Part shown: one piece after another, positions 14,045-56,227 of the stretch | How positions within the stretch are numbered: the first letter of the stretch is position 1 | Layout of the letters: each line of letters opens with the position of its first letter | Virus record (IMG/VR): IMGVR_UViG_3300042507_002438 | Location: 1 to 63,187 of that record | DNA length: 63,187 nt | Source of the DNA: a virus | Lineage: Duplodnaviria; Caudoviricetes | Direction: 5' to 3' (one strand) | Notes under the pieces: model-generated | Told to the model about the DNA's origin: nothing | The model's input: only the letters and a program-made list of their open reading frames with translations | Databases searched by the model: none | Made by a program: the position numbers and the translations under genes

Positions 14045-17000
14045 TGAATAGTAGCAAAAATTTTATTAGGGGCATAATGAACAAAGACCTGGACGACAGG
14101 TTACTGCCCGACGGAATATACAGAAATGCAATAAACATAAACGTATCGTCTTCTGACGACAAAAATGCTGGTACTGTACAGAATCATCTTGGTAACACAG
14201 AGAAGATGAGTATAGACGGACTTTTGAATGCAGAAGGCTTTACGTTACAGGGGGTGAATGTATTTCCTATAGGATCTTTTACTGACACAAAGAACAACGC
14301 CATATACTGGTTTTTGACGTCTACAAACTATGACATGATTGTTAGGTATCACGAGAGTGACACCGGAACAGTCACCGGAAAGTTAGTGCTAGTAGAGACA
14401 ATATCTACAGGTATTATGAACTTTGATCGCCAATATCTTATCACCGGAGTAAACTTGGTAGAGAATCTATTGTTCTTTACTGATGGCCTGAACCCACCAA
14501 GAAGAATAGACGTAACAAGAGTATATAGAGACGCAAGCATATCAGAGGACACGGTAAACGTAATTGTTAAGCCGCCATTGAACTCTCCCGTCATAGAGTT
14601 GATAGACGACACGACGGACGAGGCTAATAATCTAGAGGACAAGTTCATCAGATTTGCTTACAGATACAGATACGTAAATAATGAGGTGAGCGCATTGTCT
14701 CCATTCTCTGAGACCGCATTTGAGGCTAAGGAGTTTTCTTTTGACTACGCAACCGGTAGAAATATTTCCATGCAGAACAAGGCCAACTCTGTAAATATTA
14801 CGGTAGAGTTGGGGTCTAAGGAGGTAGAGTTTGTTGACATCGTGATGAAGGACACCAGAAACTTAAACGCCATGGTTGTTACTTCTATTGACAAAAGAAA
14901 CATCGACCCGGCTGCTACAACGTATCAGTACAAGTTTAAGAACAACAAGATATACACCGTGTTGCCAGATAGTCAAGTTAATAGACTGTTTGACAACGTA
15001 CCATTAAAGGCAAAGGCACAAGACCTTATAGGTAGTAGGATTATATACGGAAACTATAAGCAGTTCTACGACATAAAGAAGGCTAGCGGAGAGGACATCA
15101 TAATGGACTTTGAGTTGAATACTACAGAGAACTCAATAGTTCCAGGAACTCCAACGCCTACGTTTAAGTCTGGTAGAGACTACGAGGCTGGTATTGCTTA
15201 CTTGGATGACTTTGGAAGAATGACGACTGTGCTAGAATCAAAGGTGCACGTCGACAATATCAACATTCCAATTACAAATGCATCAAAGAAAAACGACCTA
15301 AAATTAAAGATTTACAATAACGCTCCTGAGTTTGCTAGCAAGTACAGAGTGTTCTTAAAGCAGAACCGTGGACGCTACTACAACATAATACCTATTTCTG
15401 TGGTAAATGATGGCCTGTTTGTTTACTTGCAGATTGCCAGATACGATATAGACAAGGTAAAAGAGGGTGACTACATTTATATTAAGTCAACCCCGTCTGG
15501 AGTTAAAGAGGACTCAGACAAGTACAAGGTAATAGAGGCTGTAGTTAAGCCAAAAGACTTCTTGGGAGACAAAGTTGGCCAGATACAGGACGAGGGATTT
15601 TATATTAAGATCAAGGTTCCAAATTCCAATTATTTTTCAGAGGAATCAATCTATACTCTCAAGCAGACAAACAACGGAAGAAACACAAAGAATTCAATAA
15701 AAAATGGGTCTGATACCGCATTCTTGACTTCGTTTGGAGCTGGAGCCGTAGACACGCCTATTTATTATGGAGATGGAGAAAACAAGTCTCTTTCTATTAT
15801 AAGGTCTTCTTCTGCATATACATTTGATACTGATAGAAGATTTGTAATAGAGATCACTGGCGCAAATACATTTTCATGGAGAGACTACAACGCTCAGTGG
15901 TATTACGGAGAGAACGTTACAATGAACTCTGATTCACTTCCTCCAATATATTTTTCAGGGTCAAGTGGAAACTATCTAATAGCAAACATAGGAGGAAATA
16001 ACATAACATTTGGTATTATATCTTGGGATACTTCACAAGCATATACCATTGGTGATTCGTTTAGACTAAACTACAGGGGAGGAAAGTATGGAATATTTGG
16101 AACTCCAATAGATTTTAGGTACGACATTAACTTGTTCTGGAGTGGTCCATATACCGCACTTCCTAACCTAGCGGGGACTATAAATGACAACCCTGGAGAC
16201 TTAGCAATAACACCAGGAACTGTAATAGAAATACAGGTTACTGATACATTTGAGCAAGAAAAACAAAGATTTATTTCTTCCAGCTCATATACCAACATAG
16301 AGGAGTGGTTCTTTGAAGAAAGAATATACAACAAATACAAGCAGTTTTTGCCAGACGGAAAACCAGACGGCGCAAAGGCTGTATTCTTCAGAAGGGGTAT
16401 ATACAAGCAATGGAATCCCCCCGGAGGAGGTGGTGGTACACAAGCTAGGATTGAGGAAGTAAACGACCCAAGAGGATACATAATGATGTGTATAAAGGGG
16501 TATGCAACAAGCACAAAGCAGAACGATCAAAAAGAGATAAAGGTAGACTTTTCTATACGCGTGCCTGATAACTACACTATACTTGAGACGGAGGGAGACC
16601 CTATCGCTGACAACGTATACTACGAGTTGCCTGGAACATATCCAATTATAGCAAATAGAAGACACGGGAAGTTGTTAGCGTCAGACCAAGACCAGGGAAC
16701 ATTCACGCCTGCTGTTATTACTATTGAAGACTTTAACGCTGTATCATTTGGCAATGGAATGGAGTCTTCTATTATAGAGGATGACTGGAATGGCCCAATG
16801 TTACTATCGTCTCCTAGAGCGAGTGCATCAATCGAAGAGTATAAACAGGTAGACGCAAATAACTTCTTGACATACAGCGGAGTGTTTGATATTACTTCAG
16901 GCGTGAATTCATTAAACGAGTTTAACCTGTCTCTTGCAAACTTCAGGCAGCTACACAAGGAGTTCGGGTCCATACAAAAATTGTATGCCAGAAATGCTGA

Positions 17001-19638
17001 CCTAGTTGTCTTCCAAGAGGATAAGGTGTCTAGAGTATTATACAGCAAGAACCTAATATCAGACTCTTCTGGTGGTGGCGTTATTACCACAAACACAGAC
17101 GTGCTTGGAACGCAGCTTCCATACGACGCTGAGTACGGTATATCAAACAACCCAGAAAGCTTTGCAAAGTGGGGTACCGACGTGTACTTTACAGACCAAA
17201 AGCGTGGATCGGTTCTAAAGCTGACTGACGGTGTTGGGATAGAAGAGATTTCTAGCCTGGGCATGAAGGCCTGGTTTAGAGACCTATTTGATGACTATCC
17301 AGACACTCAGAAGATTGGTGCATTCGATCCAAATGAGTTTGTGTACGTATTATCAAACAACGAGACTGAGGTTGTAAAGTGTATGGCTTCAGTTAGCCTA
17401 AACGATATAGACCTTAGTGGTGACGCATTGACTAATGTGTTCTTGTTTAAGTTGTTTGCAAACAGAAGCTGGACAATATCTAAAATAAATACTGGATCTG
17501 GAACCGGTTGGTTGACATTAAATCAGACGTCTGGAAATGGAGACGCAGCAGTGGGTGGAACCCTTACTTCTAATATTGGAGGCGCAACAGAGAGAACGAT
17601 GACACTCAGAGTAAATGCGTGCGGATCTAATATCGACATAATACTAAGACAGTCTAATAGGGCCAGAAAAGACGTAGTCGTTGTTACTTACGGTGACAAG
17701 CAAAATGACGGAGCTAAGCTAATTGCACCTAAGTACAACTACGGTTCTGGTGACGTTGGATTTGGCCAGATACCTCTCTACAATGGCTCTGAGTACATAT
17801 TCAATCCTAAGTCAGGCATAGTTGGGTCCGACGGTATACCTGGAGTTTCTAGCACGGTAAGCATAATTGCGGGAGCTGGATTTGGTACAACAACCGCTCC
17901 ATTAAAAGCGTTTAACCCTAACCTTGGAAACAAGATGTACTACCTAGACACCAACACAGAGTACGACCCAACACAGGGCGCTACGCTGATTGCGGCTGCT
18001 ACACAGGTACCATCTTATTCGTTGGTTAGCGGAGAGTACAAGGGTAACTTTACGTACAGCGCTACAAATAAGTTCTTGTACATGATTACCGACTACACGA
18101 ATGTAATCAACCCAGGAGCTAGCGTGTCTTCTATTCCGGTGCCTACAAACGGGCTTCCAGAATCAATAAACATCAATAACGCCAATGTTCTTGGTAGCTA
18201 TTCCGTGTCTATCACTTCTACGTCTACAAATATTAGAATGACCGTAGAAAACGCAGCCGGAGTAGTAATAGCTGACACTGGATTCTTGAACGCTCCTAGC
18301 GCTGTGTCTTTAAGCATAAAAAAGAGCACAACAGGAAAGCACGTAATCAAGGTGTACAACACTATAACTGCCGGATCTCCAACGTACAACATATCTGTTG
18401 GGGCGATGGGGCTGACATCTGCTAGCATCAGTAGTGCCGGATTTGCAACTTCTGCACTTGCGTGCGCTAGTTCTGGATCAACTCAAACCATTTACCATGA
18501 CGGGGCTGGAGCATCACCTGTACAGGGAGACAACATATACGTGGACGCTCTTGGAGAGGGCATCTTCGTTGGTGGCCTACTGTATTACAAGAGGGGTACA
18601 AATGCCATATCTATTAACGACCAGGGCGTTGTTACTGACCTAGTTTCTTGCGTGTGTGGAGAGTCTAGCGTTCCAGTGGTTAATCAGATAAACGTAAACC
18701 TGGTACAGGGAACAGAGGTTAGCTTCGTTATTAGTGCAACCAACAACCCATTCTCTTATGCTGCCGCTGGAAGCTGTAGAGAGTTTACATTGTATGGTGG
18801 AAGTGGAAGCGCGGTGTTTAGCGGGCAAGACTGTGTTACCGGTGTAACTAAGAGCATATTTGTTTCTGTAAACCAGACAATTACTCAGTGCTTCTGGACA
18901 GACTCTGTTTACGCTCTTATTAGTTCTGATGGATCTTATTTCACAGACAATGGAGGGTGTACAACAACTGCAATACCTCCTGGCCTTGCCTTTGACGCGA
19001 CAAACGGAATTATATCTGGAACACCAACACAGCAGGGCCAGTACACCTTTACGGTTACAGCGACAAACTGCGTTGGAACAAGTTCTCCTGCATCATTTAA
19101 GATGATAGTGGGGCCAGAAACGCCTCCAACAACAGCGTTCAATATTGACGTTACAAATACACAGACCTCCTCTTCATCTGCATGTTCTTTGGTTACTCCT
19201 TCTTACTCTGTATTGTATCATAACGGATTGCTAGCATACCCTGTAATTAGAGACGTAATATTTAGAGACGAGCTAGCTACTATCTTGTTTAACGGTAACG
19301 GACTGTGGTACTCTACGACTCTCGGTATAGCTGTTAAGATTGACGTAGACGGAACGGTTCTAGATACCTTCCAGTGTGGGGTGGGTTCTCTTACTCCAAC
19401 AAATCCAACGTGGATCAGCATGGGAGCATTGTCTAGAAGCAGCGAGTCTGCGCTAGCGGCGTGCGGAGCTGCACCTACTGGAGCGTTCTGGAGGACTGGA
19501 ACATTTGGAGCTAACCCTGGCAAGTTGTCTACAGACTTCCAGGGAACCGTATACGCACCGGCTGGATGGTACAAGAGCGGAACTAACTCTTACTACTGGG
19601 ACGGATCGCAGTGGGGCTCTGTAACACCATGTCCATAA
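14044..19638 (+). CDS. Tail nozzle / DNA stabilisation protein with C-terminal Ig-like extensions
   Basis: N-terminal F..G.MNKDLD.R..P.G.Y..A.N; propeller-like YGIS.NPES, YFTD.KRG; C-terminal Ig-like PPGL.FD..NG.ISGTPT..G.Y.FTVTATN. Confidence 0.75.
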   Translation: MNSSKNFIRGIMNKDLDDRLLPDGIYRNAININVSSSDDKNAGTVQNHLGNTEKMSIDGLLNAEGFTLQGVNVFPIGSFTDTKNNAIYWFLTSTNYDMIVRYHESDTGTVTGKLVLVETISTGIMNFDRQYLITGVNLVENLLFFTDGLNPPRRIDVTRVYRDASISEDTVNVIVKPPLNSPVIELIDDTTDEANNLEDKFIRFAYRYRYVNNEVSALSPFSETAFEAKEFSFDYATGRNISMQNKANSVNITVELGSKEVEFVDIVMKDTRNLNAMVVTSIDKRNIDPAATTYQYKFKNNKIYTVLPDSQVNRLFDNVPLKAKAQDLIGSRIIYGNYKQFYDIKKASGEDIIMDFELNTTENSIVPGTPTPTFKSGRDYEAGIAYLDDFGRMTTVLESKVHVDNINIPITNASKKNDLKLKIYNNAPEFASKYRVFLKQNRGRYYNIIPISVVNDGLFVYLQIARYDIDKVKEGDYIYIKSTPSGVKEDSDKYKVIEAVVKPKDFLGDKVGQIQDEGFYIKIKVPNSNYFSEESIYTLKQTNNGRNTKNSIKNGSDTAFLTSFGAGAVDTPIYYGDGENKSLSIIRSSSAYTFDTDRRFVIEITGANTFSWRDYNAQWYYGENVTMNSDSLPPIYFSGSSGNYLIANIGGNNITFGIISWDTSQAYTIGDSFRLNYRGGKYGIFGTPIDFRYDINLFWSGPYTALPNLAGTINDNPGDLAITPGTVIEIQVTDTFEQEKQRFISSSSYTNIEEWFFEERIYNKYKQFLPDGKPDGAKAVFFRRGIYKQWNPPGGGGGTQARIEEVNDPRGYIMMCIKGYATSTKQNDQKEIKVDFSIRVPDNYTILETEGDPIADNVYYELPGTYPIIANRRHGKLLASDQDQGTFTPAVITIEDFNAVSFGNGMESSIIEDDWNGPMLLSSPRASASIEEYKQVDANNFLTYSGVFDITSGVNSLNEFNLSLANFRQLHKEFGSIQKLYARNADLVVFQEDKVSRVLYSKNLISDSSGGGVITTNTDVLGTQLPYDAEYGISNNPESFAKWGTDVYFTDQKRGSVLKLTDGVGIEEISSLGMKAWFRDLFDDYPDTQKIGAFDPNEFVYVLSNNETEVVKCMASVSLNDIDLSGDALTNVFLFKLFANRSWTISKINTGSGTGWLTLNQTSGNGDAAVGGTLTSNIGGATERTMTLRVNACGSNIDIILRQSNRARKDVVVVTYGDKQNDGAKLIAPKYNYGSGDVGFGQIPLYNGSEYIFNPKSGIVGSDGIPGVSSTVSIIAGAGFGTTTAPLKAFNPNLGNKMYYLDTNTEYDPTQGATLIAAATQVPSYSLVSGEYKGNFTYSATNKFLYMITDYTNVINPGASVSSIPVPTNGLPESININNANVLGSYSVSITSTSTNIRMTVENAAGVVIADTGFLNAPSAVSLSIKKSTTGKHVIKVYNTITAGSPTYNISVGAMGLTSASISSAGFATSALACASSGSTQTIYHDGAGASPVQGDNIYVDALGEGIFVGGLLYYKRGTNAISINDQGVVTDLVSCVCGESSVPVVNQINVNLVQGTEVSFVISATNNPFSYAAAGSCREFTLYGGSGSAVFSGQDCVTGVTKSIFVSVNQTITQCFWTDSVYALISSDGSYFTDNGGCTTTAIPPGLAFDATNGIISGTPTQQGQYTFTVTATNCVGTSSPASFKMIVGPETPPTTAFNIDVTNTQTSSSSACSLVTPSYSVLYHNGLLAYPVIRDVIFRDELATILFNGNGLWYSTTLGIAVKIDVDGTVLDTFQCGVGSLTPTNPTWISMGALSRSSESALAACGAAPTGAFWRTGTFGANPGKLSTDFQGTVYAPAGWYKSGTNSYYWDGSQWGSVTPCP

Positions 19639-36471: not shown

Positions 36472-36597
36472 TATATTACGCCAAAACAAACAAATTTTAT
36501 GAGTTTTGGCTGGGTTATAAATAAAATAGGCTGTTACGTTGTAGTCATTAATCTGCTTTCACACCCAACTTAATGTCAGTATCAGATCACCTATTAG

Positions 36598-36760
36598 AAG
36601 TCAGAGGAGGACTTGAACCCCCACACCATTTGTGGTTTTCTCTAATCTACCCTTGCAAAGGTACCACCAGCGTTTGGCCACTCCTACTAAAGGTCCGCTT
36701 ACCTCCCTTCAGTAATAACAGACTTGCGGTCTATTGTGTGCACTCCTGTGCTATCTGACT
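36598..36760 (-). ncRNA. 163-nt tRNA-shaped RNA with an expanded domain in place of the anticodon arm
   Basis: Acceptor AGTCAGA/TCTGACT, D-like arm GCAC-AGGA-GTGC, T arm GGGGG-TTCAAGT-CCTCC, several internal hairpins; intergenic. Confidence 0.7.
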
Positions 36761-50864: not shown

Positions 50865-51102
50865 GGTCTTCGCTCATTATATTGTTAATTATTTCCCTCA
50901 CGTCGTTCTCGTCGTAGCACTCCATGAACCATGAATGCTTGAGGTACTCGTTCTCTTCGCACAAGAAATGTATCAGCATGTGCCGTCTCATCTCTCGCTC
51001 GCTGTCCCACTCGTAGCCCGAAAAGTCGTCCGAGTGCCACACTTCTTCTGTTGGGTAGTAGACCGCCTCGGCCTCAAACCCCTCTTCAAATATTATTTTC
51101 AT
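50845..51102 (-). CDS. Acidic early protein
   Basis: 85 aa, E/D-rich. Confidence 0.65.
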   Translation of the reverse strand: MKIIFEEGFEAEAVYYPTEEVWHSDDFSGYEWDSEREMRRHMLIHFLCEENEYLKHSWFMECYDENDVREIINNIMSEDHEDYRD

Positions 51103-51200
51103 TTTTTGTCGTTGTCAATTAGTGTAATAATCCCTACAAATAATAGATAGATAACGCCCATCGTCGCTATGCATATCAGTTGCCATACATGATGATTCAT
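51099..51200 (-). CDS. 33-aa single-TM peptide
   Basis: MNHHVWQLICIATMGVIYLLFVGIITLIDNDKK*; ATGA overlap. Confidence 0.45.
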   Translation of the reverse strand: MNHHVWQLICIATMGVIYLLFVGIITLIDNDKK

Positions 51201-51203
51201 TGT

Positions 51204-51620
51204 TTAGTCCTCCCACTCTGTATAGTAACTATCCCCGTCGTCGTCATACTCTTCCTCCCACGTGGTATTGTACACGTTCTTGCACACGGCATCCCTACAC
51301 TCGTCGCAGCAAGCATGCGCCTCACCGCCTCTGAATACGTAACCCTCTGTGAAATTCCAATCGCCGCAGTTGTCACAATATCTGTAGTCGTCGTTGTGTC
51401 TGTTGCATGCATAGATAAATGTAGCCTTTTCAAAGTCGGTCAACTTCTCTCCATCAATCCAATCTGATGGTTTACAATTTGGGTCCTCAAGATACTCGGC
51501 TACTAAACTCTTCATGTAAATTGAATTTGCAACCTCTTCTCTTAATTCGTTAATTGCCCATAGTTCATTCATGATGACTACGCTCTTGACGATTTCATTT
51601 GATTTTAATAGTTGTTTCAT
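51204..51620 (-). CDS. Early protein with zinc finger and acidic tail
   Basis: CDNC...EGY...CCDEC...YYTEWE; ACACTATATC leader. Confidence 0.75.
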   Translation of the reverse strand: MKQLLKSNEIVKSVVIMNELWAINELREEVANSIYMKSLVAEYLEDPNCKPSDWIDGEKLTDFEKATFIYACNRHNDDYRYCDNCGDWNFTEGYVFRGGEAHACCDECRDAVCKNVYNTTWEEEYDDDGDSYYTEWED

Positions 51621-51641
51621 GATATAGTGTATTAATTAGTT

Positions 51642-51863
51642 TTATTGGTTAAATCCCCATTGCTCTACGAAATGGTTGTTGCATTCGCTACACCTTACAA
51701 TGCGCTGTATTGCGTTTCCTACTTGCTGCCTCTCTTCGGTTGGGGTGTACTCTGTTTCGTCCCCACAATGTCTACATATCTTTTTGTATGAGATAATTAT
51801 TTTCTTGCTTGAGGTGTTGTCATATGCCGACTCCCAAGTTACTTGATGCGCTACTTGTTTCAT
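51642..51863 (-). CDS. Zinc-ribbon protein
   Basis: CRHC...CSEC. Confidence 0.65.
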   Translation of the reverse strand: MKQVAHQVTWESAYDNTSSKKIIISYKKICRHCGDETEYTPTEERQQVGNAIQRIVRCSECNNHFVEQWGFNQ

Positions 51864-52075
51864 GCTTGTTCGATTAATTTGATGATTTCTTCAGTTGACT
51901 CCAACACCTCAAACCCACCATTGTTATGGGTAGCTACGCCAACTCTTGTGTACTTTGGCTTTATCCTATTGTCGGCATTTTCGGGAACCTCATACATATG
52001 ACCAATGTGCATGGGGTTCACGTACAATTCTTCTTTTTTGTTAAGGTAGAATGTTGTTAGTTTAATTAGTTTCAT
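51860..52075 (-). CDS. FlbD-like small protein
   Basis: IKLT....E.YVN...I......V.ES.EEI...I; ATG 52075 follows the ACACTATATT leader. Confidence 0.65.
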   Translation of the reverse strand: MKLIKLTTFYLNKKEELYVNPMHIGHMYEVPENADNRIKPKYTRVGVATHNNGGFEVLESTEEIIKLIEQA

Positions 52076-52095
52076 AATATAGTGTATTAATTTGT

Positions 52096-52141
52096 TTGAA
52101 CCGCGGAGGGGAATCGAACCCCTCTCGTTCCTTTCGCGGTT
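52096..52141 (-). ncRNA. Mini-tRNA-like element 3 (degenerate)
   Basis: AACCGCG-AAAGGAACGA-GAGGGG-TTCGATT-CCCCTC-CGCGGTT-CAA; intergenic. Confidence 0.7.
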
Positions 52142-52145
52142 AGTA

Positions 52146-52418
52146 TTATAGATGTCCTCCAAATACTTTATTGTTGTCTTCAATTAAGTCAAATCTAGTT
52201 TCAGACTCGCAGTCTATCCAATCCATTCCGTCTTGCAGTCCAAAGCCAAAATCAAATTCTGATTTACTTATGTTGTCGTCCAATTGTTCAACAAACAATT
52301 CGTGGTTATCCAAAAGCCACTCGTGTATCTTGTCTTGGCTGATGTGAGATGGAACTTCGATAGTTACTGACGCTACCTTATGGTAAACTTCTCTTGTTGT
52401 GATTGTTACTTGTTTCAT
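52146..52418 (-). CDS. Early hypothetical protein
   Basis: 90 aa; ACACTATATC leader. Confidence 0.75.
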   Translation of the reverse strand: MKQVTITTREVYHKVASVTIEVPSHISQDKIHEWLLDNHELFVEQLDDNISKSEFDFGFGLQDGMDWIDCESETRFDLIEDNNKVFGGHL

Positions 52419-52429
52419 GATATAGTGTA

Positions 52430-52714
52430 TTATTTTAAGCCTAGGTTGATGTTGATTTGATTGAACATTACAGAACTTTCAAGGTCTTCTAGAAATCCTA
52501 CCTCAATGCCGTAAGTGTCAGTATCTTTTATATTGTCGCTATATTGGACTAAAGACTCTGATTCGTCATCGTGAAGTCTGAAGACCTCCTTGTTCATGTT
52601 CATTAGGTCTAGAACCTCGGTGTGTTTAACCTCTTGGAAGATAAACCCGTCCAAGTTGTAATAAGTTTCACATGGCGCTAAGCCCAATTTTTTTACGTTT
52701 GTTAATTTTTTCAT
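52430..52714 (-). CDS. Early hypothetical protein
   Basis: ATG 52714 after the conserved leader; F.L.DD.SES.....GIEVG. Confidence 0.75.
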   Translation of the reverse strand: MKKLTNVKKLGLAPCETYYNLDGFIFQEVKHTEVLDLMNMNKEVFRLHDDESESLVQYSDNIKDTDTYGIEVGFLEDLESSVMFNQININLGLK

Positions 52715-52735
52715 GATATAGTGTATTAAATTGTT

Positions 52736-52783
52736 TGGTTCCCGTGACCCGACTCGAACGGGTAGCATGCCATTGGCACGGGA
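52736..52783 (-). ncRNA. Mini-tRNA-like element 2
   Basis: TCCCGTG-13 nt-ACCCG-TTCGAGT-CGGGT-CACGGGA-ACCA; perfect 7+5 bp. Confidence 0.85.
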
Positions 52784-52788
52784 TGAGA

Positions 52789-53136
52789 CTAGTCTAGGTA
52801 TATAGACTTGTCGTTGTTGACGTCGTAGATTGCCTTCTGATGATTGGCGTGCCCGTAAGCAATGGCGACCTCTCTGTCTTGGATGTTCATGCTCAAGTCT
52901 AGGTATAACTTGTTGTCGTCTACCCAAGCGCCAAAGTACGTGTACTCTGACCTTAGTTGTGCTTGTGGTCTGTACCTATCGCACGTCTTGTTTATCTCTT
53001 CGTCCGATATGTCATCAAAGTTGTCGATGATGAACTCTAGCCCCTCTAGGCTGACCATGTAGCCCGACGTTGGCGCGCTGTTGTCCTTGTCCAAGGAAAA
53101 CCCGCCGTTACTTTTGAGTAAGTTTGCGTAATTCAT
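52789..53136 (-). CDS. Early phage protein
   Basis: GGF...P..GYMVS...G.W.D....YLD.S...A...G....Q.AIYD. Confidence 0.75.
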   Translation of the reverse strand: MNYANLLKSNGGFSLDKDNSAPTSGYMVSLEGLEFIIDNFDDISDEEINKTCDRYRPQAQLRSEYTYFGAWVDDNKLYLDLSMNIQDREVAIAYGHANHQKAIYDVNNDKSIYLD

Positions 53137-53278
53137 TTTCAATTTCTCTTTTAAGTTCTAGTTGTCGTTCAATTGCTCGCGTTAATTTGTTGGCGTACTC
53201 GTGGCGCCCCTCTTGGTGCACTAGGTAGGCTAACTTGCCTACCCGTTGTGCGATTTCGATTAGTTCTTCTATTAGCAT
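53108..53278 (-). CDS. 56-aa helical protein
   Basis: MLIEELIEIAQRVG...; fills the gap. Confidence 0.55.
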   Translation of the reverse strand: MLIEELIEIAQRVGKLAYLVHQEGRHEYANKLTRAIERQLELKREIENELRKLTQK

Positions 53279-53517
53279 AAATCTTTGTTTGATACTTTAA
53301 GTGTGTTGTTGTGCTGTTCTGAAATCATGTCGATTGCGACTCTGTATACACGTCCGTTCGGCATTTGATAGGTCACGTACTCTTGGAGTGCGCCCGTCGT
53401 GGAGCGGTGTGTAACCACCCCACTGCGCCATGCTTGATTTCGGTAGACCTTACACTCTCTAGCCCACCCGCGAAACTCGTCGCGTGCTTCGGGCAGTTCA
53501 TTTAATAGGTTAGTCAT
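53272..53517 (-). CDS. Early hypothetical protein
   Basis: MTNLLNEL...; start uncertain (53556 possible). Confidence 0.65.
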   Translation of the reverse strand: MTNLLNELPEARDEFRGWARECKVYRNQAWRSGVVTHRSTTGALQEYVTYQMPNGRVYRVAIDMISEQHNNTLKVSNKDLC

Positions 53518-53521
53518 GTCG

Positions 53522-53710
53522 TTAGTTGATTTTGTTTGATTGAATATGTAATTCATGCAGCATGTCTGATACGTTACATATCATCTGTTCTGTGTGCATT
53601 AAGTTTTGTTGGTCAGCAAAGCATTCGCCTTTTTCCATGTTGTACATTTTGCGAAGTGTCTTAAGAAACTTCTCGCATGCAGCAATTTTTTCTTCTTGAA
53701 TTGTTCTCAT
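53522..53710 (-). CDS. Early hypothetical protein
   Basis: 62 aa; conserved leader. Confidence 0.7.
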   Translation of the reverse strand: MRTIQEEKIAACEKFLKTLRKMYNMEKGECFADQQNLMHTEQMICNVSDMLHELHIQSNKIN

Positions 53711-53727
53711 GATATAGTGTGTTATGG

Positions 53728-54006
53728 TTAATATGTGTACAATGTGTTGTTGAAATTAATCGGGAGTTTTTTTGCTTTGATATATCCGTTACGCATGGTT
53801 TTGTATGTATTAATTGGCATCCAAAAACCAAAGCAAGACAAGAATGAGGATACGTAGATAAATGCCGCCTTATCCGTCATTACAATAGCGCGGCATCCGT
53901 GAGTTACCTCTTCATTTTGTGAGATTTTAAAAATTGGCTCGTCGGATGACTCATATTTTAACTTGAAGTCATCGGACATTTGCGGTGTAATTTTGATTGT
54001 CTTCAT
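53728..54006 (-). CDS. Early hypothetical protein
   Basis: ATG 54006 after the conserved leader, 21 nt from the hammerhead cut. Confidence 0.7.
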   Translation of the reverse strand: MKTIKITPQMSDDFKLKYESSDEPIFKISQNEEVTHGCRAIVMTDKAAFIYVSSFLSCFGFWMPINTYKTMRNGYIKAKKLPINFNNTLYTY

Positions 54007-54021
54007 GATATAGTGTGTTAT

Positions 54022-54071
54022 GGTTAAGACGCCCGTAGGCGTTTCGTCCAATTAGGACTCTTCAGTTAACC
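54022..54071 (-). ncRNA. Type I hammerhead ribozyme 1
   Basis: GGUUAA-CUGAAGA-GUCC-UAAUU-GGAC-GAAA-CGCC-UACG-GGCG-UC/UUAACC; complete core, three perfect stems. Confidence 0.93.
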
Positions 54072-54272
54072 TTTGTGGTCGTGAAAAACAACTTGGTGCG
54101 ACCTAATTAGTTCGGGTATACAATACGCGTCCCAATCACCGCTCTCTATTTTGTTGTCAGCATAATCAATTGCCTCCTCAATTGGTACGTTTACATACGG
54201 GCAGTTCGCATAGATTTCGTTTGGAATTTCACTAACGAATACGTCGTTGAAGTAGATTGTTACTAGTTGCAT
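54066..54272 (-). CDS. 68-aa acidic early protein bracketed by two hammerheads
   Basis: Conserved leader; stop codon lies in hammerhead stem I. Confidence 0.75.
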   Translation of the reverse strand: MQLVTIYFNDVFVSEIPNEIYANCPYVNVPIEEAIDYADNKIESGDWDAYCIPELIRSHQVVFHDHKG

Positions 54273-54287
54273 GATATAGTGTTTTAT

Positions 54288-54339
54288 GGTTAATATGCCC
54301 CGCAGGGCATTTCGTCTATTGAAGACTCGTCAGTTAACC
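54288..54339 (-). ncRNA. Type I hammerhead ribozyme 2
   Basis: GGUUAA-CUGACGA-GUCU-UCAAU-AGAC-GAAA-UGCCC-UGCG-GGGCA-UA/UUAACC; stems covary with copy 1. Confidence 0.93.
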
Positions 54340-54501
54340 TCTTACTCCTCCATTGTAGCACCTTTTCACTTTGTAGTGAGAAGACCCAATTTGCTTTTCC
54401 ATTTTTTTCGCTTGAACACAAGCATCTTTTAGGTTTGAAGCAATTATGTAAATGCTTGAAGGCTTGCCGTTTGAGTAGATTACATTGTAGGTGTTGTTCA
54501 T
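54334..54501 (-). CDS. 55-aa first early protein
   Basis: MNNTYNVIYSNG...NGGVRG*; conserved leader; stop in hammerhead stem I. Confidence 0.7.
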   Translation of the reverse strand: MNNTYNVIYSNGKPSSIYIIASNLKDACVQAKKMEKQIGSSHYKVKRCYNGGVRG

Positions 54502-54520
54502 GATATAGTGTGTAATTAGT

Positions 54521-54568
54521 TGGTTACCTAGAGCGGACTCGAACCGCTTGCACGCCTAGTGCTAGGTA
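54521..54568 (-). ncRNA. Mini-tRNA-like element 1
   Basis: TACCTAG-13 nt-AGCGG-TTCGAGT-CCGCT-CTAGGTA-ACCA; perfect 7+5 bp. Confidence 0.85.
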
Positions 54569-54855
54569 ATGTTACATGGTAGCCGTACCAAATAGGACTC
54601 ATTTGTATGCCTCGCAGCGGGACTATATACGCTGCTGTTAGTCGTTTCGCCGAATCTTCATGACGATTTACTCAAAGGTCACTATCGGGGCGCCGTATCG
54701 CGTTACACACTATGTCAGAGCATGTCACCTAATCGGGTTAGGCTAGCGTACGGGTTATTTCAAAGAACTTATACTATCGGCGGGGAGCCAAAGGCTGCAA
54801 CCCTAGAAGTAATAGTATGTAAGTAAAAGAACGATGTTGAACTAAATCAACGATA

Positions 54856-54887
54856 CAAAGGTATATCGGGGGTTTTGACTATGCAAG
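54856..54887 (-). promoter_or_regulatory. Main early promoter (Bacteroidota -33/-7)
   Basis: CTTG-20 nt-TACCTTTG, canonical spacing, heads the whole - strand arm. Confidence 0.8.
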
Positions 54888-54951
54888 TTATATGCAAAAT
54901 ATTTTTGATTTTCTGACATTTGCGTGACAAAGTTTTTTGAGTTTGATTGAT

Positions 54952-54964
54952 TATCAATGAGTTA
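54952..54964 (+). promoter_or_regulatory. IHF-type binding site
   Basis: TATCAATGAGTTA matches WATCAANNNNTTR. Confidence 0.5.
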
Positions 54965-55010
54965 CAAATCCATGTTAAAAAATGATGAAGAGAAGGTGGG
55001 GTAAACTCTC

Positions 55011-55067
55011 TGTTTCACGCACAAATGTTCCACGGAACTAATGCTGTTTCACGGCCAATGTTCCACG
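55011..55067 (+). repeat. Four direct TGTTYCACG repeats
   Basis: At 55011, 55026, 55045 and 55059. Confidence 0.75.
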
Positions 55068-55401
55068 GCCATTCCGTGACATTACTATGACACAGTTGTA
55101 AACAGGGAGCGAAGGTAGGGCAGCAAGCAAGCATACACGAACGAACGACGTACACGAACGACGAACGGCAGCGGACACGGTCAGCATGTATATTATGTAG
55201 GTAGGTATGTCATCCAAGGCCTACAGAAAATGCCAAAAATCTACAAGAAAAAGGCCGAAACCGAGACCCCCCTATCGCGAAAAAATCGGTTTCCGGGATC
55301 GGCGGCTGGACGTCAAATGGGTATATTACCCAAAATATCCACATTTCCAACGACTTTTTTCAGGCAATACAACTACCGGTTTCGGGGATATTCTGTGAAT
55401 A

Positions 55402-55571
55402 GTGTTGATTTCTAACATTTTGATGTTGATTTTGTGTTGATGTAACCCGCGTCAATACTGGGAATGTTGAAAATGTTAACTTTTTCTCTTAAAAATGAAA
55501 AATTAAAAATAATATTCTCACATATATTATCCTATATATATAAAGGGGCCGGTCACTTTAACATTCAACAT
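55402..55571. other. Origin-like element (copy B)
   Basis: TGTTGAT iterons, TGTTGAAAATGTTAAC, CTCAC...CTATATATATAAAG.GGCC, TTAACATTCAACAT in the same order as at 45177-45357. Confidence 0.6.
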
Positions 55572-55600
55572 TACTTTTTTGAGTTGTATCTTTGCCTGAA

Positions 55601-56227
55601 ATGAATCTAAAACAGGTCAATTTTAACGGCTACTACAAGGAAGAGTCGTCAAAGAAGCAGGTCTACCTGCACCATACTGCCGGAAGTGCGGACGGAGAGC
55701 GTCAGTTTCAGTTTTGGGACGCGGACGCGGTGAAGGTTGCGACGTGTGTTTGCGTGAGTAGGAGTGGAGAGGTGGTGCAGGGGTTTGGGAGTAAGTACTG
55801 GGCTCATCACTTGGGCCTGAGCAGCAAGCACTTTAAGGCTCGCGGCATTGGGTACCGCAACCTGGACCGCTCGTCAATCGGGATCGAGATCTGTAACTGG
55901 GGCTGGCTCAAAAAGGACGGGGACAACTTCTTCACGTATACGGGCACGAAGATTCACAAGGACCTGGTAGTCGAGCTGGAGACGCCATACCGCGGCCAAA
56001 AGTACTGGGAGGCGTACACGCCGGAGCAGATCGAGGCGACAAGAGAGCTACTGGTGCTGTGGCGTGACAAGTACGGCATACCAATGACATACAACGGGGA
56101 CATATGGGACGTGACGATGCGAGCGCTAAAGGGTGACCCAGGCCTTTACACACACAATAGTGTGAGGTCAGACAAGACGGACGTGTACCCTCATCCACAG
56201 CTAGTAAACATGCTAAAGGGGCTATGA
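55601..56227 (+). CDS. N-acetylmuramoyl-L-alanine amidase (Amidase_2 endolysin)
   Basis: LHHTAG, WAHH, SIGIEI, YT.EQ, TH....DK.D..P; ATG 6 nt after TATCTTTG (55587). Confidence 0.9.
   Translation: MNLKQVNFNGYYKEESSKKQVYLHHTAGSADGERQFQFWDADAVKVATCVCVSRSGEVVQGFGSKYWAHHLGLSSKHFKARGIGYRNLDRSSIGIEICNWGWLKKDGDNFFTYTGTKIHKDLVVELETPYRGQKYWEAYTPEQIEATRELLVLWRDKYGIPMTYNGDIWDVTMRALKGDPGLYTHNSVRSDKTDVYPHPQLVNMLKGL

What the first reader, a model, noticed from the sequence alone, without database searches (positions are those of the whole stretch)
52096..54568. Three anticodon-less mini-tRNAs (46-48 nt) with T-loop, D-loop-like GG and ACCA end
Seen: elements at 54521-54568 and 52736-52783 share exact geometry (7-bp acceptor, 13-nt linker, 5-bp T stem, UUCGAGU loop, ACCA) but have completely different stem sequences, which is strong covariation. 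Their linkers align as C....GGC.UGC., keeping a GG that could dock on the T-loop as in the tRNA elbow. A third copy at 52096-52141 has 6+6 bp, a UUCGAUU loop, a GG linker and a UCAA end. Inference: these are either mascRNA-like processing signals or excised tRNA decoys that titrate host tRNA-targeting defences or uncharged-tRNA sensors.
Basis: partly seen in the sequence, partly recalled or inferred. Interest (0 to 1): 0.87.

Follow-up and report, generated by a model that had tools for sequence, protein, structure and literature searches.

The report
Mini-tRNA punctuation marks in phage operon
A Flavobacterium-type phage places tiny anticodon-less tRNA look-alikes between its early genes, at the spots where it and its relatives otherwise place self-cutting hammerhead ribozymes, so they most likely tell host tRNA-trimming enzymes where to cut the early messenger RNA.

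Summary
Three 46-48-nt elements lie on the minus (coding) strand at 54568..54521, 52783..52736 and 52141..52096. Each has an acceptor stem, a short GG-containing linker, a T arm with a canonical T loop, and an ACCA or UCAA tail.

They are real RNA structures. Orthologues and paralogues in seven other viral or metagenomic contigs keep every base pair through compensatory changes: 96 of 96 cells paired, 10 of 12 pairs with double changes.

Two other intergenic gaps of the same early operon hold type I hammerhead ribozymes (54339..54288, 54071..54022). In the window and its two closest relatives, a mini-tRNA 3' end lies 19-21 nt before the next ATG and a hammerhead cut site 21-24 nt before it. 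Homologous genes are preceded by a mini-tRNA in one phage and a hammerhead in another.

The slot before the first early ORF holds a mini-tRNA, a cloverleaf tRNA-like element, a tmRNA or a hammerhead, depending on the phage.

Best reading (about 0.6): these are cis-acting processing signals for host tRNA-maturation nucleases, a phage form of tRNA punctuation and plant-mitochondrial t-elements. No RNA data exist. A trans-acting decoy role for the excised RNA is not excluded.

The parts
54521..54568 (-). Mini-tRNA E1: 7-bp acceptor stem, 13-nt linker (C....GGCGUGCA), 5-bp T stem, UUCGAGU loop, ACCA tail. It lies between the ~1-kb non-coding leader and the first early ORF, and its 3' end is 19 nt before the ATG.
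   Evidence: The orthologue in L008/L047 has 3 compensatory T-stem pairs.
52736..52783 (-). Mini-tRNA E2: same geometry as E1, linker CCAAUGGCAUGCU, ACCA tail. It starts 5 nt after the upstream stop codon and ends 21 nt before the next ATG.
   Evidence: The L047 orthologue carries a G.U pair and a GCCA tail.
52096..52141 (-). Mini-tRNA E3, a second subtype: 6+6 (or 7+6) bp, 11-nt linker with GG, UUCGAUU loop, UCAA tail. It starts 4 nt after the upstream stop codon and ends 20 nt before the next ATG.
   Evidence: Orthologues are in L047 (loop change only) and L159 (one compensatory G-C to A-U pair). Covariance models R1 and R2 do not find it.
54288..54339 (-). Type I hammerhead ribozyme HH1: core CUGACGA...GAAA, AUA cleavage triplet. 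The upstream stop codon lies inside stem I, and the predicted cut is 21 nt before the next ATG.
   Evidence: Rfam RAGATH-1-hammerhead gives 23.1 bits, far below the gathering score of 56.3. My own scanner finds all three stems and the core.
54022..54071 (-). Type I hammerhead ribozyme HH2: core CUGAAGA...GAAA, GUC cleavage triplet. The stop codon lies in stem I, and the predicted cut is 21 nt before the next ATG.
   Evidence: Rfam Hammerhead_1 gives 31.6 bits, E 4.6e-5, just below the gathering score of 34.
51618..54511 (-). Eight copies of the leader motif ACACTATAT(C/T)ATG, which includes the start codon, one in front of each early transcription or translation unit: 54511, 54282, 54016, 53720, 52724, 52428, 52085, 51630 (5' ends on the minus strand). 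Three are preceded by a mini-tRNA, two by a hammerhead and three by nothing.
   Evidence: 8 matches against a mean of 0.07 in shuffles.
54569..55591 (-). About 1 kb of non-coding region between the divergent amidase gene and E1. It is the presumed leader of the early transcript and is strongly conserved with L047, especially the ~270 nt just upstream of E1.
51204..54501 (-). Cluster of small early ORFs (55-138 aa, no Pfam family) that the elements punctuate.

Best explanation
The three elements are cis-acting, tRNA-shaped processing signals in the polycistronic early transcript of a Flavobacterium-type (Elemovirus-like, crAss-muzzle-bearing) podophage.

Each folds into the acceptor/T-arm coaxial helix, which is 12 bp in E1 and E2 and in the 6+6 reading of E3. 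Each has a canonical T loop and a GG-containing linker that can stand in for the D loop. E1 and E2 also have an encoded RCCA end.

That is the set of features by which bacterial RNase P and the 3' tRNA-end nucleases recognise a pre-tRNA (RNase Z, or an RNase E/G-type cut just after CCA). This rests on established knowledge, recalled here.

The host enzymes therefore cut the transcript at the element's edges. This separates the long 5' leader and the individual small genes, and gives the downstream mRNA a short A/U-rich leader of about 20 nt. The hammerhead ribozymes in the neighbouring gaps do the same job autonomously. The 46-48-nt minihelix would be released as a by-product.

Shown: the structure, its conservation by covariation, its strand, its intergenic placement, its positional equivalence with hammerheads, and its interchange with them.

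Inferred: that it is transcribed as part of a polycistronic RNA, that RNase P/Z/E cut it, and which of the two cuts matters.
For: 1. Structure under selection.
- Five sequences from the window, L047 and L048: 60 of 60 cells paired, 6 of 12 pairs with changes on both sides, slid controls 17-47% paired.
- Eight sequences, adding L116, L134 and L107: 96 of 96 cells paired, 10 of 12 pairs with double changes, 0 of 500 shuffles as high.
- E3-type: one compensatory G-C to A-U pair in L159.
- A G.U pair in L047 E2 fits only the sense-strand RNA.

2. Hammerheads in the same operon.
- Two in the window.
- Ten in all across the window, L047, L048, L116 and L091, with 120 of 120 cells paired in stems I, II and outer III, and 7 of 12 pairs with double changes.

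3. Same slot.
- Mini-tRNA 3' end to ATG: 19, 21, 20 nt in the window; 19, 21, 20 in L047; 19 in L048.
- Hammerhead cut to ATG: 21-24 nt in all 10.
- Mini-tRNAs start 4-15 nt after the upstream stop codon where there is an upstream ORF.

4. Interchange.
- The gene after E2 in the window (52714..52430) follows a hammerhead in L047 (88.5% identity over 96 aa) and in L116 (60% over 95 aa).
- A 104-aa gene that is 66% identical between L116 and L159 is followed by an E2-type element in one and an E3-type element in the other.

5. The slot between the long non-coding leader and the first early ORF holds different RNAs in different phages.
- A mini-tRNA in the window, L047, L048 and the complete 67.6-kb record G001.
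- A cloverleaf tRNA-like element in L091 (Rfam tRNA 44.6 bits).
- A tmRNA in Cellulophaga phage phi14:2.
- A type III hammerhead in the cultured Flavobacterium phage elemoF.
- All four are RNAs that are cut, or that cut themselves.

6. Precedent.
- Clustered hammerheads flanking single genes in prophages were proposed to process long phage transcripts (PMC3088659, passages read).
- Plant mitochondrial t-elements are tRNA-like structures shown to direct RNase P/Z cuts that make mRNA ends (PMC1920247, passages read).
Against: - There is no RNA evidence at all. No RNA run was listed for this stretch, so transcription, polycistrony and cleavage are all inferred.
- The host is unknown, so its RNase P/Z/E repertoire and its use of encoded CCA could not be checked.
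- RNase P cleavage at the 5' edge would leave the upstream mRNA with a 4-7-nt unprotected 3' tail. In L159 it would cut inside or right at the stop codon. This is awkward unless only the 3' cut matters or rapid decay is wanted.
- The linker motif GGCRUGC is invariant in elements whose stems have diverged. That is more conservation than a bare RNase P/Z signal is known to need.
- E3 and the two L107 elements lack CCA.
- In L116 and L134 the ATG sits 1 nt after the tail or overlaps it, so spacing is not uniform outside the close relatives.
- The repeated ACACTATATCATG motif could be a promoter in front of each gene. That would weaken the polycistronic premise, although the motif is absent from L048, L116, L159 and G001.
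- Ascertainment: the new family members and the hammerheads were picked by scanners that demand perfect stems, so the 100% pairing figures are partly built in.
- Both window hammerheads score below Rfam's gathering thresholds.
Confidence: 0.6

Rival explanations
1. Excised mini-tRNAs are the product, not a by-product. After processing, the CCA-ended 48-nt minihelices accumulate and act in trans as tRNA mimics or tmRNA-TLD mimics. They might titrate a host factor that reads the acceptor/T-arm/elbow, such as SmpB, EF-Tu, the CCA-adding enzyme, or acceptor-end-directed toxins or defence nucleases. This includes the reader's decoy idea.
For: - The linker GGCRUGC and position C8 are invariant in E1, E2 and the L048 element although 5-6 stem pairs have turned over.
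- The layout is a 7-bp acceptor stem, then a 13-nt unpaired stretch with GG at positions 13-14, then a T arm. It resembles the tRNA-like domain of tmRNA with helix P2 and everything beyond it removed. The comparison uses the Rfam tmRNA consensus shown; the E. coli numbering is recalled.
- A related kind of phage (phi14:2) carries a full tmRNA in the same genomic slot.
- CCA is encoded in E1 and E2 and in the L047, L048, L116 and L134 copies.
Against: - There is no G3.U70 pair, so alanine charging as in tmRNA is not expected (sequence).
- There is no anticodon loop, so the elements cannot decoy anticodon nucleases.
- Hammerheads leave no comparable free small RNA yet replace the elements at the same junctions. 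This argues that the cut, not the product, is the shared function.
- E3 and the L107 copies lack CCA.
- Pfam found no tRNA-related enzyme among the 20 early and middle proteins or the 8 large ORFs.
Confidence: 0.13
2. The elements are 3'-end caps or terminators. They are stable structures that end or protect the upstream mRNA, acting as an exonuclease block or an RNA-polymerase stop signal, without being cut by tRNA enzymes. Their tRNA likeness would be incidental or only ancestral.
For: - They begin 4-15 nt after stop codons.
- In the relative MW202828.1 the same intergenic slots hold a plain repeated palindromic hairpin.
- After a type I hammerhead cut, the folded ribozyme also stays on the 3' end of the upstream RNA. 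This follows from hammerhead topology.
Against: - A plain hairpin would do that job. Instead a canonical 7-nt T loop, a 12-bp coaxial length, a GG linker and RCCA are kept.
- No U tract follows the elements, and the terminator scan was not enriched: 4 found against a mean of 3.4 in shuffles.
- E1 and its equivalents have no ORF upstream to protect.
Confidence: 0.1
3. The elements are a new self-cleaving ribozyme class. By the logic that uncovered twister-sister, pistol and hatchet (conserved motifs next to hammerheads in phage-like contexts; recalled), the mini-tRNA could itself be catalytic.
For: - They occupy the same slot as hammerheads and are interchangeable with them.
- The unpaired nucleotides (linker and loop) are highly conserved.
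- No Rfam family matches: the best hit is mascRNA at 17.2 bits against a gathering score of 42.5.
Against: - The conserved loop is exactly the tRNA T loop and the tail is CCA, which host enzymes already explain.
- Full tRNA-like and tmRNA genes occupy the same slot in other phages.
Confidence: 0.05
4. The elements are decaying remnants of phage tRNA or tmRNA genes, or DNA-level recombination sites, with no present RNA function.
For: - Module shuffling is evident: a relic of the E1 3' end sits in front of another gene in L047, and the genes are mosaic.
- R2 partly matches the variable-arm plus T-arm part of class II tRNAs in a phage tRNA array.
Against: - Every pair is kept through 10 double substitutions, and the 5' strand co-varies.
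- There are several subtypes in at least 8 contigs with G+C from 34 to 57%.
- All copies lie on the coding strand and fill the gap between a stop codon and a start codon.
Confidence: 0.05

Closest known systems
Plant mitochondrial t-elements (tRNA-like structures at mRNA ends; PMC1920247, passages read)
   Same: Non-decoding tRNA-like structures built around a conserved T arm and acceptor stem. They sit next to ORFs in polycistronic transcripts. Their borders coincide with mRNA 5' or 3' ends made by RNase P and RNase Z, and the excised element can carry CCA-type additions.
   Different: t-elements live in organelle genomes, are mostly about 70-nt non-canonical cloverleaves, and their processing was shown experimentally. 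The phage elements are 46-48 nt with no D stem or anticodon arm, encode CCA, carry a conserved GGCRUGC linker, alternate with hammerheads, and have no experimental data.
mascRNA/menRNA at the 3' ends of MALAT1 and NEAT1 (Rfam RF01684)
   Same: A tRNA-like module follows a long non-coding RNA and recruits RNase P (and RNase Z plus the CCA-adding enzyme) to make the 3' end of the upstream RNA. E1 likewise follows a conserved ~1-kb non-coding stretch.
   Different: mascRNA is a eukaryotic nuclear cloverleaf of about 60 nt. Only E3 gave a weak hit, 17.2 bits against a gathering score of 42.5, so the phage elements are not family members.
Mitochondrial tRNA punctuation, and tRNA or ribozyme spacers in engineered polycistronic arrays (recalled)
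   Same: tRNA-shaped spacers between genes are cut out by RNase P/Z to release the flanking RNAs. In synthetic arrays, tRNAs and hammerhead/HDV ribozymes are used interchangeably for this.
   Different: Those spacers are full, decoding tRNAs. Here the spacers are stripped to the parts the nucleases read, in a bacteriophage.
RNase P minihelix model substrates (acceptor stem + T stem-loop + RCCA; recalled)
   Same: E1 and E2 have the same 12-bp coaxial helix, T loop and 3' RCCA that suffice for cleavage by bacterial RNase P in vitro.
   Different: The model substrates are laboratory constructs in which the T stem continues directly from the acceptor stem. The phage elements keep a 13-nt internal linker with GG.
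Clustered hammerhead ribozymes in prophages (PMC3088659, passages read; review PMC6765202, passages read)
   Same: Several ribozymes flank single small genes in phage transcripts, and the proposed role is cutting polycistronic RNA. The hammerheads found here belong to this kind.
   Different: No tRNA-like partner element sharing the slot is mentioned in the passages I read. My literature searches found none.
tRNA-like domain of tmRNA (Rfam RF00023)
   Same: Acceptor stem, unpaired D-loop analogue of about 13 nt with GG, T arm, ACCA, no anticodon arm. A full tmRNA sits in the same genomic slot in phage phi14:2.
   Different: The phage elements have no G3.U70 pair, no helix P2, no pseudoknots and no tag reading frame. 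ARAGORN and Rfam call no tmRNA in the window.

Membership tests
Canonical tRNA (Rfam RF00005) | Cloverleaf with D arm and anticodon arm, detected by a tRNA covariance model or by ARAGORN | tested here: not met
   ARAGORN calls none of the three. There is no Rfam tRNA hit at the gathering threshold or at E<=10 in 51500-55700. Only 11-13 nt lie between the acceptor and T stems.
Canonical tRNA (Rfam RF00005) | 7-bp acceptor stem stacked on a 5-bp T stem, a 7-nt T loop UUCRANY, and a discriminator plus CCA | tested here: met
   E1 and E2 meet this fully. E3 has 6+6 or 7+6 bp and a UCAA tail.
tmRNA (RF00023, RF04321) | G3.U70 pair, tag-peptide reading frame, helix P2 and pseudoknots | tested here: not met
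   There is no tmRNA or permuted-tmRNA hit at E<=10 and none by ARAGORN. Position 3:70 is C-G in E1 and E2.
mascRNA-menRNA (RF01684) | Score at or above the family's gathering threshold | tested here: not met
   Only E3 hits, at 17.2 bits against a gathering score of 42.5, E 7.7.
t-element-type processing signal (functional class) | tRNA-like fold with a conserved T arm, placed directly beside ORFs on the coding strand | tested here: met
   The T-arm motif GGTTCRANYCC used to find t-elements in PMC1920247 is matched by E1 and E3. E2 does not match it, because its stem letters differ.
t-element-type processing signal (functional class) | RNA ends at the element borders, made by RNase P and RNase Z | not testable with these tools
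RNase P minimal substrate | 12-bp acceptor/T coaxial helix, T loop, 3' RCCA | tested here: met
   E1 and E2 have 7+5 bp and ACCA. E3 has 6+6 bp but UCAA. Cleavage itself was not tested.
Hammerhead ribozyme (neighbouring elements HH1, HH2) | Core CUGANGA and GAAA, three stems, NUH cleavage triplet | tested here: met
   My own scanner finds the core and all stems in both, with triplets AUA and GUC. Stems co-vary across 10 copies.
Hammerhead ribozyme (neighbouring elements HH1, HH2) | Rfam gathering score | tested here: not met
   HH2 scores 31.6 bits against 34 for Hammerhead_1. HH1 scores 23.1 against 56.3 for RAGATH-1-hammerhead. Self-cleavage was not tested.

The most novel reading that the evidence does not exclude
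Once cut out, the 48-nt CCA-ended minihelices are functional small RNAs. They would be a minimal tRNA or tmRNA-TLD mimic with a conserved GGCRUGC elbow-forming linker, made in several copies per early transcript. This mimic would engage a host factor that reads the acceptor/T-arm/elbow: SmpB or EF-Tu, the CCA-adding enzyme, or an acceptor-end-directed toxin or defence nuclease. The phage would thereby blunt ribosome rescue or a tRNA-directed defence in the first minutes of infection, and RNA punctuation would be only half of the elements' purpose.
Probability: 0.12. Interest if true: 0.88.

Novelty: new variant of a known kind. Interest (0 to 1): 0.72.

Why it matters
If correct, this extends tRNA punctuation of messenger RNA to a bacteriophage. 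Until now it has been known from mitochondria, plant t-elements and MALAT1/mascRNA. The signal here is pared down to the minimum that RNase P and the 3'-end nucleases read.

It also bears on an open question: what the many hammerhead ribozymes in phage genomes are for. In these phages a hammerhead and a tRNA-shaped nuclease signal are swapped at the same junctions. The shared property is an RNA cut about 20 nt before a start codon. That is independent comparative support for the mRNA-processing reading of phage hammerheads.

Practically, the elements are natural, very short (46-48 nt) spacer parts for polycistronic expression in Bacteroidota-type systems without Shine-Dalgarno leaders.

The invariant linker hints at an extra, still unknown constraint that is worth an experiment.

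Tried and rejected
- **RNA evidence:** The look-up of sequencing runs with kind rna listed no RNA holder.
- **blastn against phages:** 51000-56000 gave no match in the phage collection.
- **Covariance model R1 (3 sequences):** too sequence-specific. It found only its own members and not E3.
- **Covariance model R2 (8 sequences):**
  - It also misses E3-type elements.
  - Its sub-threshold hits in L146 are class II tRNAs of a 27-tRNA array, not family members.
- **Relaxed structural scanner:** not informative, with 164 hits against 90 on reversed sequence.
- **Relatives found through the amidase at about 50-56% identity:** the strict scanners found no convincing mini-tRNA or hammerhead in them.
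- **The search for related loci with the 138-aa early protein:** found nothing.
- **Pattern scan GGCRTGCW-N5-TTCGAGTC:**
  - 47 stretches were returned, L008 among them; the script examined the other 46.
  - Of those 46, only 3 have the full geometry (L107, L116, L134). With L008, known, that is 4 of 47.
  - 8 more of the 46 have a 5/5 T stem without a 7-bp acceptor partner.
  - The other 35 are chance or coding matches.
- **Pattern scan for the E3 linker:** 10 stretches, of which 1 is a true E3-type element (L159).
- **N4-like virion RNA polymerase idea for the 3524-aa protein:** not supported. There is no RNA-polymerase Pfam hit, only DUF3293. There is also no DFDxD motif by regex. I therefore make no claim about which polymerase makes the early RNA.
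- **Sigma-70 promoter and intrinsic terminator scans:** at shuffle level.
- **Pfam on the early and middle proteins (20 in all):** no tRNA-processing or tRNA-modifying enzyme.
- **Larger Rfam family including the conserved stretch upstream of E1:** nothing at E<=10.
- **Not used:** Complex prediction and the structure tools, because no protein-binding claim is made.

Full report
**What is there**

- The window is a complete 63,187-base viral record. Around the finding the genes run on the minus strand, and all three elements read as RNA on that strand.
- E1 (54568..54521) and E2 (52783..52736) each have a 7-bp acceptor stem, a 13-nt linker, a 5-bp T stem, a UUCGAGU loop and an ACCA tail.
- E3 (52141..52096) has 6+6 (or 7+6) bp, an 11-nt GG-containing linker, a UUCGAUU loop and a UCAA tail.
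- Minimum-free-energy folds reproduce both helices in all three. The thermodynamic z-scores are modest (-1.3 to -2.3), so energy alone would not carry the claim.
- ARAGORN and Rfam at curated thresholds call no tRNA here.
- A strict scanner looks for a T loop UUCRANN, 5/5 T-stem pairs, 7/7 acceptor pairs and a linker of 4-30 nt. In the window it finds exactly these three plus one AT-rich hit inside the giant ORF.
- On 802,731 bases of window plus loci read backwards, the scanner gives one hit. Forwards it also lists a handful of weak AT-rich hits without CCA, which I set aside.
- E1 and E2 differ at 5 of 12 pairs, all compensated.

**The phage**

- The large ORFs hit a crAss-type muzzle domain, a BT4734-like primase, a GroEL and a 3524-aa protein with DUF3293.
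- The primase's nearest cultured relatives all infect Bacteroidota. They are mainly Flavobacterium phages of the genus Elemovirus, whose genome plan is the same.
- I found no RNA-polymerase signature in the giant protein, so I do not say which polymerase makes the early RNA.
- The elements lie in a cluster of small ORFs without known families. This cluster is downstream of a ~1-kb non-coding region that separates it from a divergent amidase gene.
- Eight of these units begin with the motif ACACTATAT(C/T)ATG: 8 matches against a mean of 0.07 in shuffles.

**The missed context: hammerhead ribozymes**

- A permissive Rfam scan of 51500-55700 hit Hammerhead_1 at 54071..54022 (31.6 bits, E 4.6e-5, gathering score 34). 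It gave a weak RAGATH-1-hammerhead hit at 54356..54289.
- Both carry the full core (CUGANGA, GAAA), three stems and an NUH triplet (GUC and AUA). They are type I, with the upstream stop codon inside stem I.
- So of the eight leaders, three are preceded by a mini-tRNA, two by a hammerhead and three by nothing. In those three the previous stop codon abuts the leader.

**Relatives**

- Searching with the neighbouring amidase gave 29 viral loci and 53 metagenome loci.
  - The closest lineage is L008 = L037 and L047, at 88-89% amino-acid identity.
    - It has E1, E2 and E3 at the same places. Three E1 T-stem pairs are exchanged (AGCGG/CCGCU to GUCAG/CUGAC), and E2 has a G.U pair and a GCCA tail.
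    - It also has two hammerheads.
  - L048 (59% identity) has one mini-tRNA before its first ORF, then three hammerheads.
- A pattern built from the linker and loop returned 47 viral stretches.
  - Four have the full geometry: L008, L116, L134 and L107. L107 has a second, longer-linker copy.
  - L116 also has a hammerhead on the same strand.
- A pattern from the E3 linker returned 10 stretches. One of them, L159, is an E3-type element with a compensatory G-C to A-U pair.
- L091, found through a conserved early protein, has three kinds of element:
  - a cloverleaf tRNA-like element (ARAGORN 'Asn att', Rfam tRNA 44.6 bits);
  - a 65-nt tRNA-like element with a 30-nt linker;
  - two hammerheads.
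- These contigs span 34 to 57% G+C, so the family is not confined to one phage species.

**Covariation**

- On five sequences (window, L047, L048), 60 of 60 cells are paired. Six of 12 pairs change on both sides, and structures slid by 1-3 columns pair at 17-47%.
- On eight sequences, 96 of 96 cells are paired. Ten of 12 pairs change on both sides, and none of 500 shuffles reaches this.
- For ten hammerheads, stems I, II and the outer part of III are paired in 120 of 120 cells, with 7 of 12 pairs changed on both sides.
- Caveat: members were collected by scanners that require perfect stems, so 100% pairing is partly built in. The orthologous copies in L047 are the least biased evidence, because they were expected at those sites whatever their pairing.

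**Same slot, interchangeable**

- Mini-tRNA 3' end to the next ATG: 19, 21, 20 nt in the window; 19, 21, 20 in L047; 19 in L048.
- Hammerhead cut site to ATG: 21-24 nt in all ten.
- Outside this clade the spacing varies: 1 nt in L116, overlapping in L134, 12 and 17 in L107, 25 and 38 in L091.
- Where there is an upstream ORF, the mini-tRNA starts 4-15 nt after its stop codon.
- The gene that follows E2 in the window follows a hammerhead in L047 (88.5% identity over 96 aa). It also follows a hammerhead in L116 (60% over 95 aa).
- A 104-aa gene that is 66% identical between L116 and L159 is followed by an E2-type element in one and by an E3-type element plus an inserted gene in the other.

**The first slot**

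The position between a long non-coding stretch and the first small ORF holds a different RNA in each lineage. All of these RNAs are cut or cut themselves.

| Phage or contig | Element in the first slot |
|---|---|
| Window, L047, L048, complete 67.6-kb record G001 | Mini-tRNA |
| L091 | Cloverleaf tRNA-like element |
| Cellulophaga phage phi14:2 | Full tmRNA (Rfam 46 bits against a gathering score of 47; ARAGORN gives a tag peptide) |
| Cultured Flavobacterium phage elemoF | Type III hammerhead (36.3 bits against a gathering score of 48.5) |

**Mechanism**

- Shown: the fold, its maintenance by selection, the strand, the placement, and the equivalence with hammerheads.
- Inferred from established knowledge of tRNA maturation (recalled): bacterial RNase P recognises the acceptor/T coaxial helix, the T-loop elbow and 3' RCCA. 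RNase Z, or an RNase E/G-type cut just after CCA, makes the 3' end.
- The mini-tRNAs carry these features and little else, so the simplest reading is that the host enzymes cut the early transcript at their borders.
- By analogy with type I hammerheads, the 3'-side cut may be the one that matters. Those ribozymes stay on the upstream fragment and give the downstream mRNA a ~21-nt leader.
- This is also suggested by L159, where the acceptor strand overlaps the stop codon.
- I put this reading at about 0.6.

**Rivals**

- A trans-acting role of the excised minihelix (0.13) is suggested by the invariant GGCRUGC linker, by the likeness to the tmRNA tRNA-like domain, and by the encoded CCA. It does not explain the replacement by hammerheads.
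- The elements could be plain 3' caps or terminators (0.10).
- They could be a new self-cleaving ribozyme class (0.05).
- They could be functionless remnants or DNA-level sites (0.05).

**What is known**

- Clustered hammerheads flanking single genes in prophages, with the suggestion that they cut long phage transcripts, are in print (PMC3088659, passages read; review PMC6765202, passages read).
- tRNA-like t-elements that direct RNase P/Z cuts at plant mitochondrial mRNA ends are in print (PMC1920247, passages read).
- In phi14:2, early transcripts showed no common upstream motif. Two long intergenic regions were highly transcribed RNAs of undetermined function (bioRxiv 10.1101/2020.03.07.982082, passages read; its supplementary tables were not open to me).
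- Seven full-text searches turned up no description of anticodon-less tRNA-like elements sharing intergenic slots with hammerheads in phages. That is not proof of absence. The library lacks most subscription journals, and supplements (for example the hammerhead alignments of PMC3088659) were closed.

**Verdict**

I rate this as a new variant of a known kind: a tRNA-like processing signal, here in minimal form, in a phage, and paired with hammerheads. The main weakness is the complete lack of RNA or enzyme data.

Noticed in passing
L104 (NC_021806, Cellulophaga phage phi14:2) 4031-4502 +: A full tmRNA lies in the 1.7-kb intergenic region before g006. Rfam gives 46 bits, E 1e-16, just under the gathering score of 47. 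ARAGORN gives the tag peptide GSSVQKLAMVA*, and a G3.U70 pair is present. The record's feature table shows no RNA gene there. It may be one of the abundant early 'long non-coding RNAs' whose function the phi14:2 transcription paper left open.
   Followed up: partly
L170 (NC_055853.1, Flavobacterium phage elemoF) 17865-17921 -: A predicted type III hammerhead (Rfam 36.3 bits, E 6e-5, gathering score 48.5) lies about 14 nt upstream of the first early ORF (gp59) of a cultured phage. The phage has the same genome plan as the window, which makes it a usable experimental system.
   Followed up: partly
L169 (MW202828.1) about 14540-18950 +: In this relative (primase 53% identical) at least six intergenic gaps of the early operon hold the same palindromic hairpin (GTGTCGTTAACGACAC) right after stop codons. 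It is followed by leaders ending in ..AACACTATCATG, a motif like the window's. A longer GC-rich structure precedes the first hairpin. No Rfam family matches.
   Followed up: partly
window 51618-54511 -: The 13-nt motif ACACTATAT(C/T)ATG, which includes the start codon, occurs 8 times and only in the early cluster. A similar leader occurs in MW202828.1, but not in L048, L116, L159 or G001. Whether it is a promoter, a translation signal or a product of module duplication is open.
   Followed up: partly
window 36597-36688 -: An odd tRNA-like call sits in a ~400-nt non-coding gap. ARAGORN reports 'tRNA-???' with a 2-nt anticodon, and Rfam tRNA gives 14.6 bits, E 6. It has a T arm (loop UUCAAGU) and a possible long variable arm. 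Its fold is no better than shuffles (z +0.87).
   Followed up: partly
window 54569-54850 -, compared with L047 3396-3680 -: The ~270 nt directly upstream of E1 is almost identical between the window and L047, while the middle of the non-coding region has diverged. It could be a structured leader or non-coding RNA whose 3' end E1 defines. A leader-like motif (ACACACTATGTCAG) also points the other way on the plus strand near 54706-54720.
   Followed up: no
L047 about 745-765 -: The leader of one gene is preceded by GTAACCAACTAATTAAC. This is the 3' end of an E1-type acceptor strand plus its leader, without the rest of the element. It looks like a scar of module shuffling by recombination at these sequences.
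   Followed up: no
L112, L114, L117, L118, L124, L129, L143 (viral contigs): Seven contigs share a conserved hairpin, then a GC-rich T arm with a UUCGAGU loop, followed directly by ACCA. No acceptor stem lies within 70 nt. This may be a different truncated tRNA-like element.
   Followed up: no
L116 7322-7999 -: A 225-aa ORF is a mosaic of two separate small early genes of the window: gene 52714..52430 at its N terminus (60% identity) and gene 54272..54066 in its middle (79% identity). It shows how freely these early modules recombine.
   Followed up: partly
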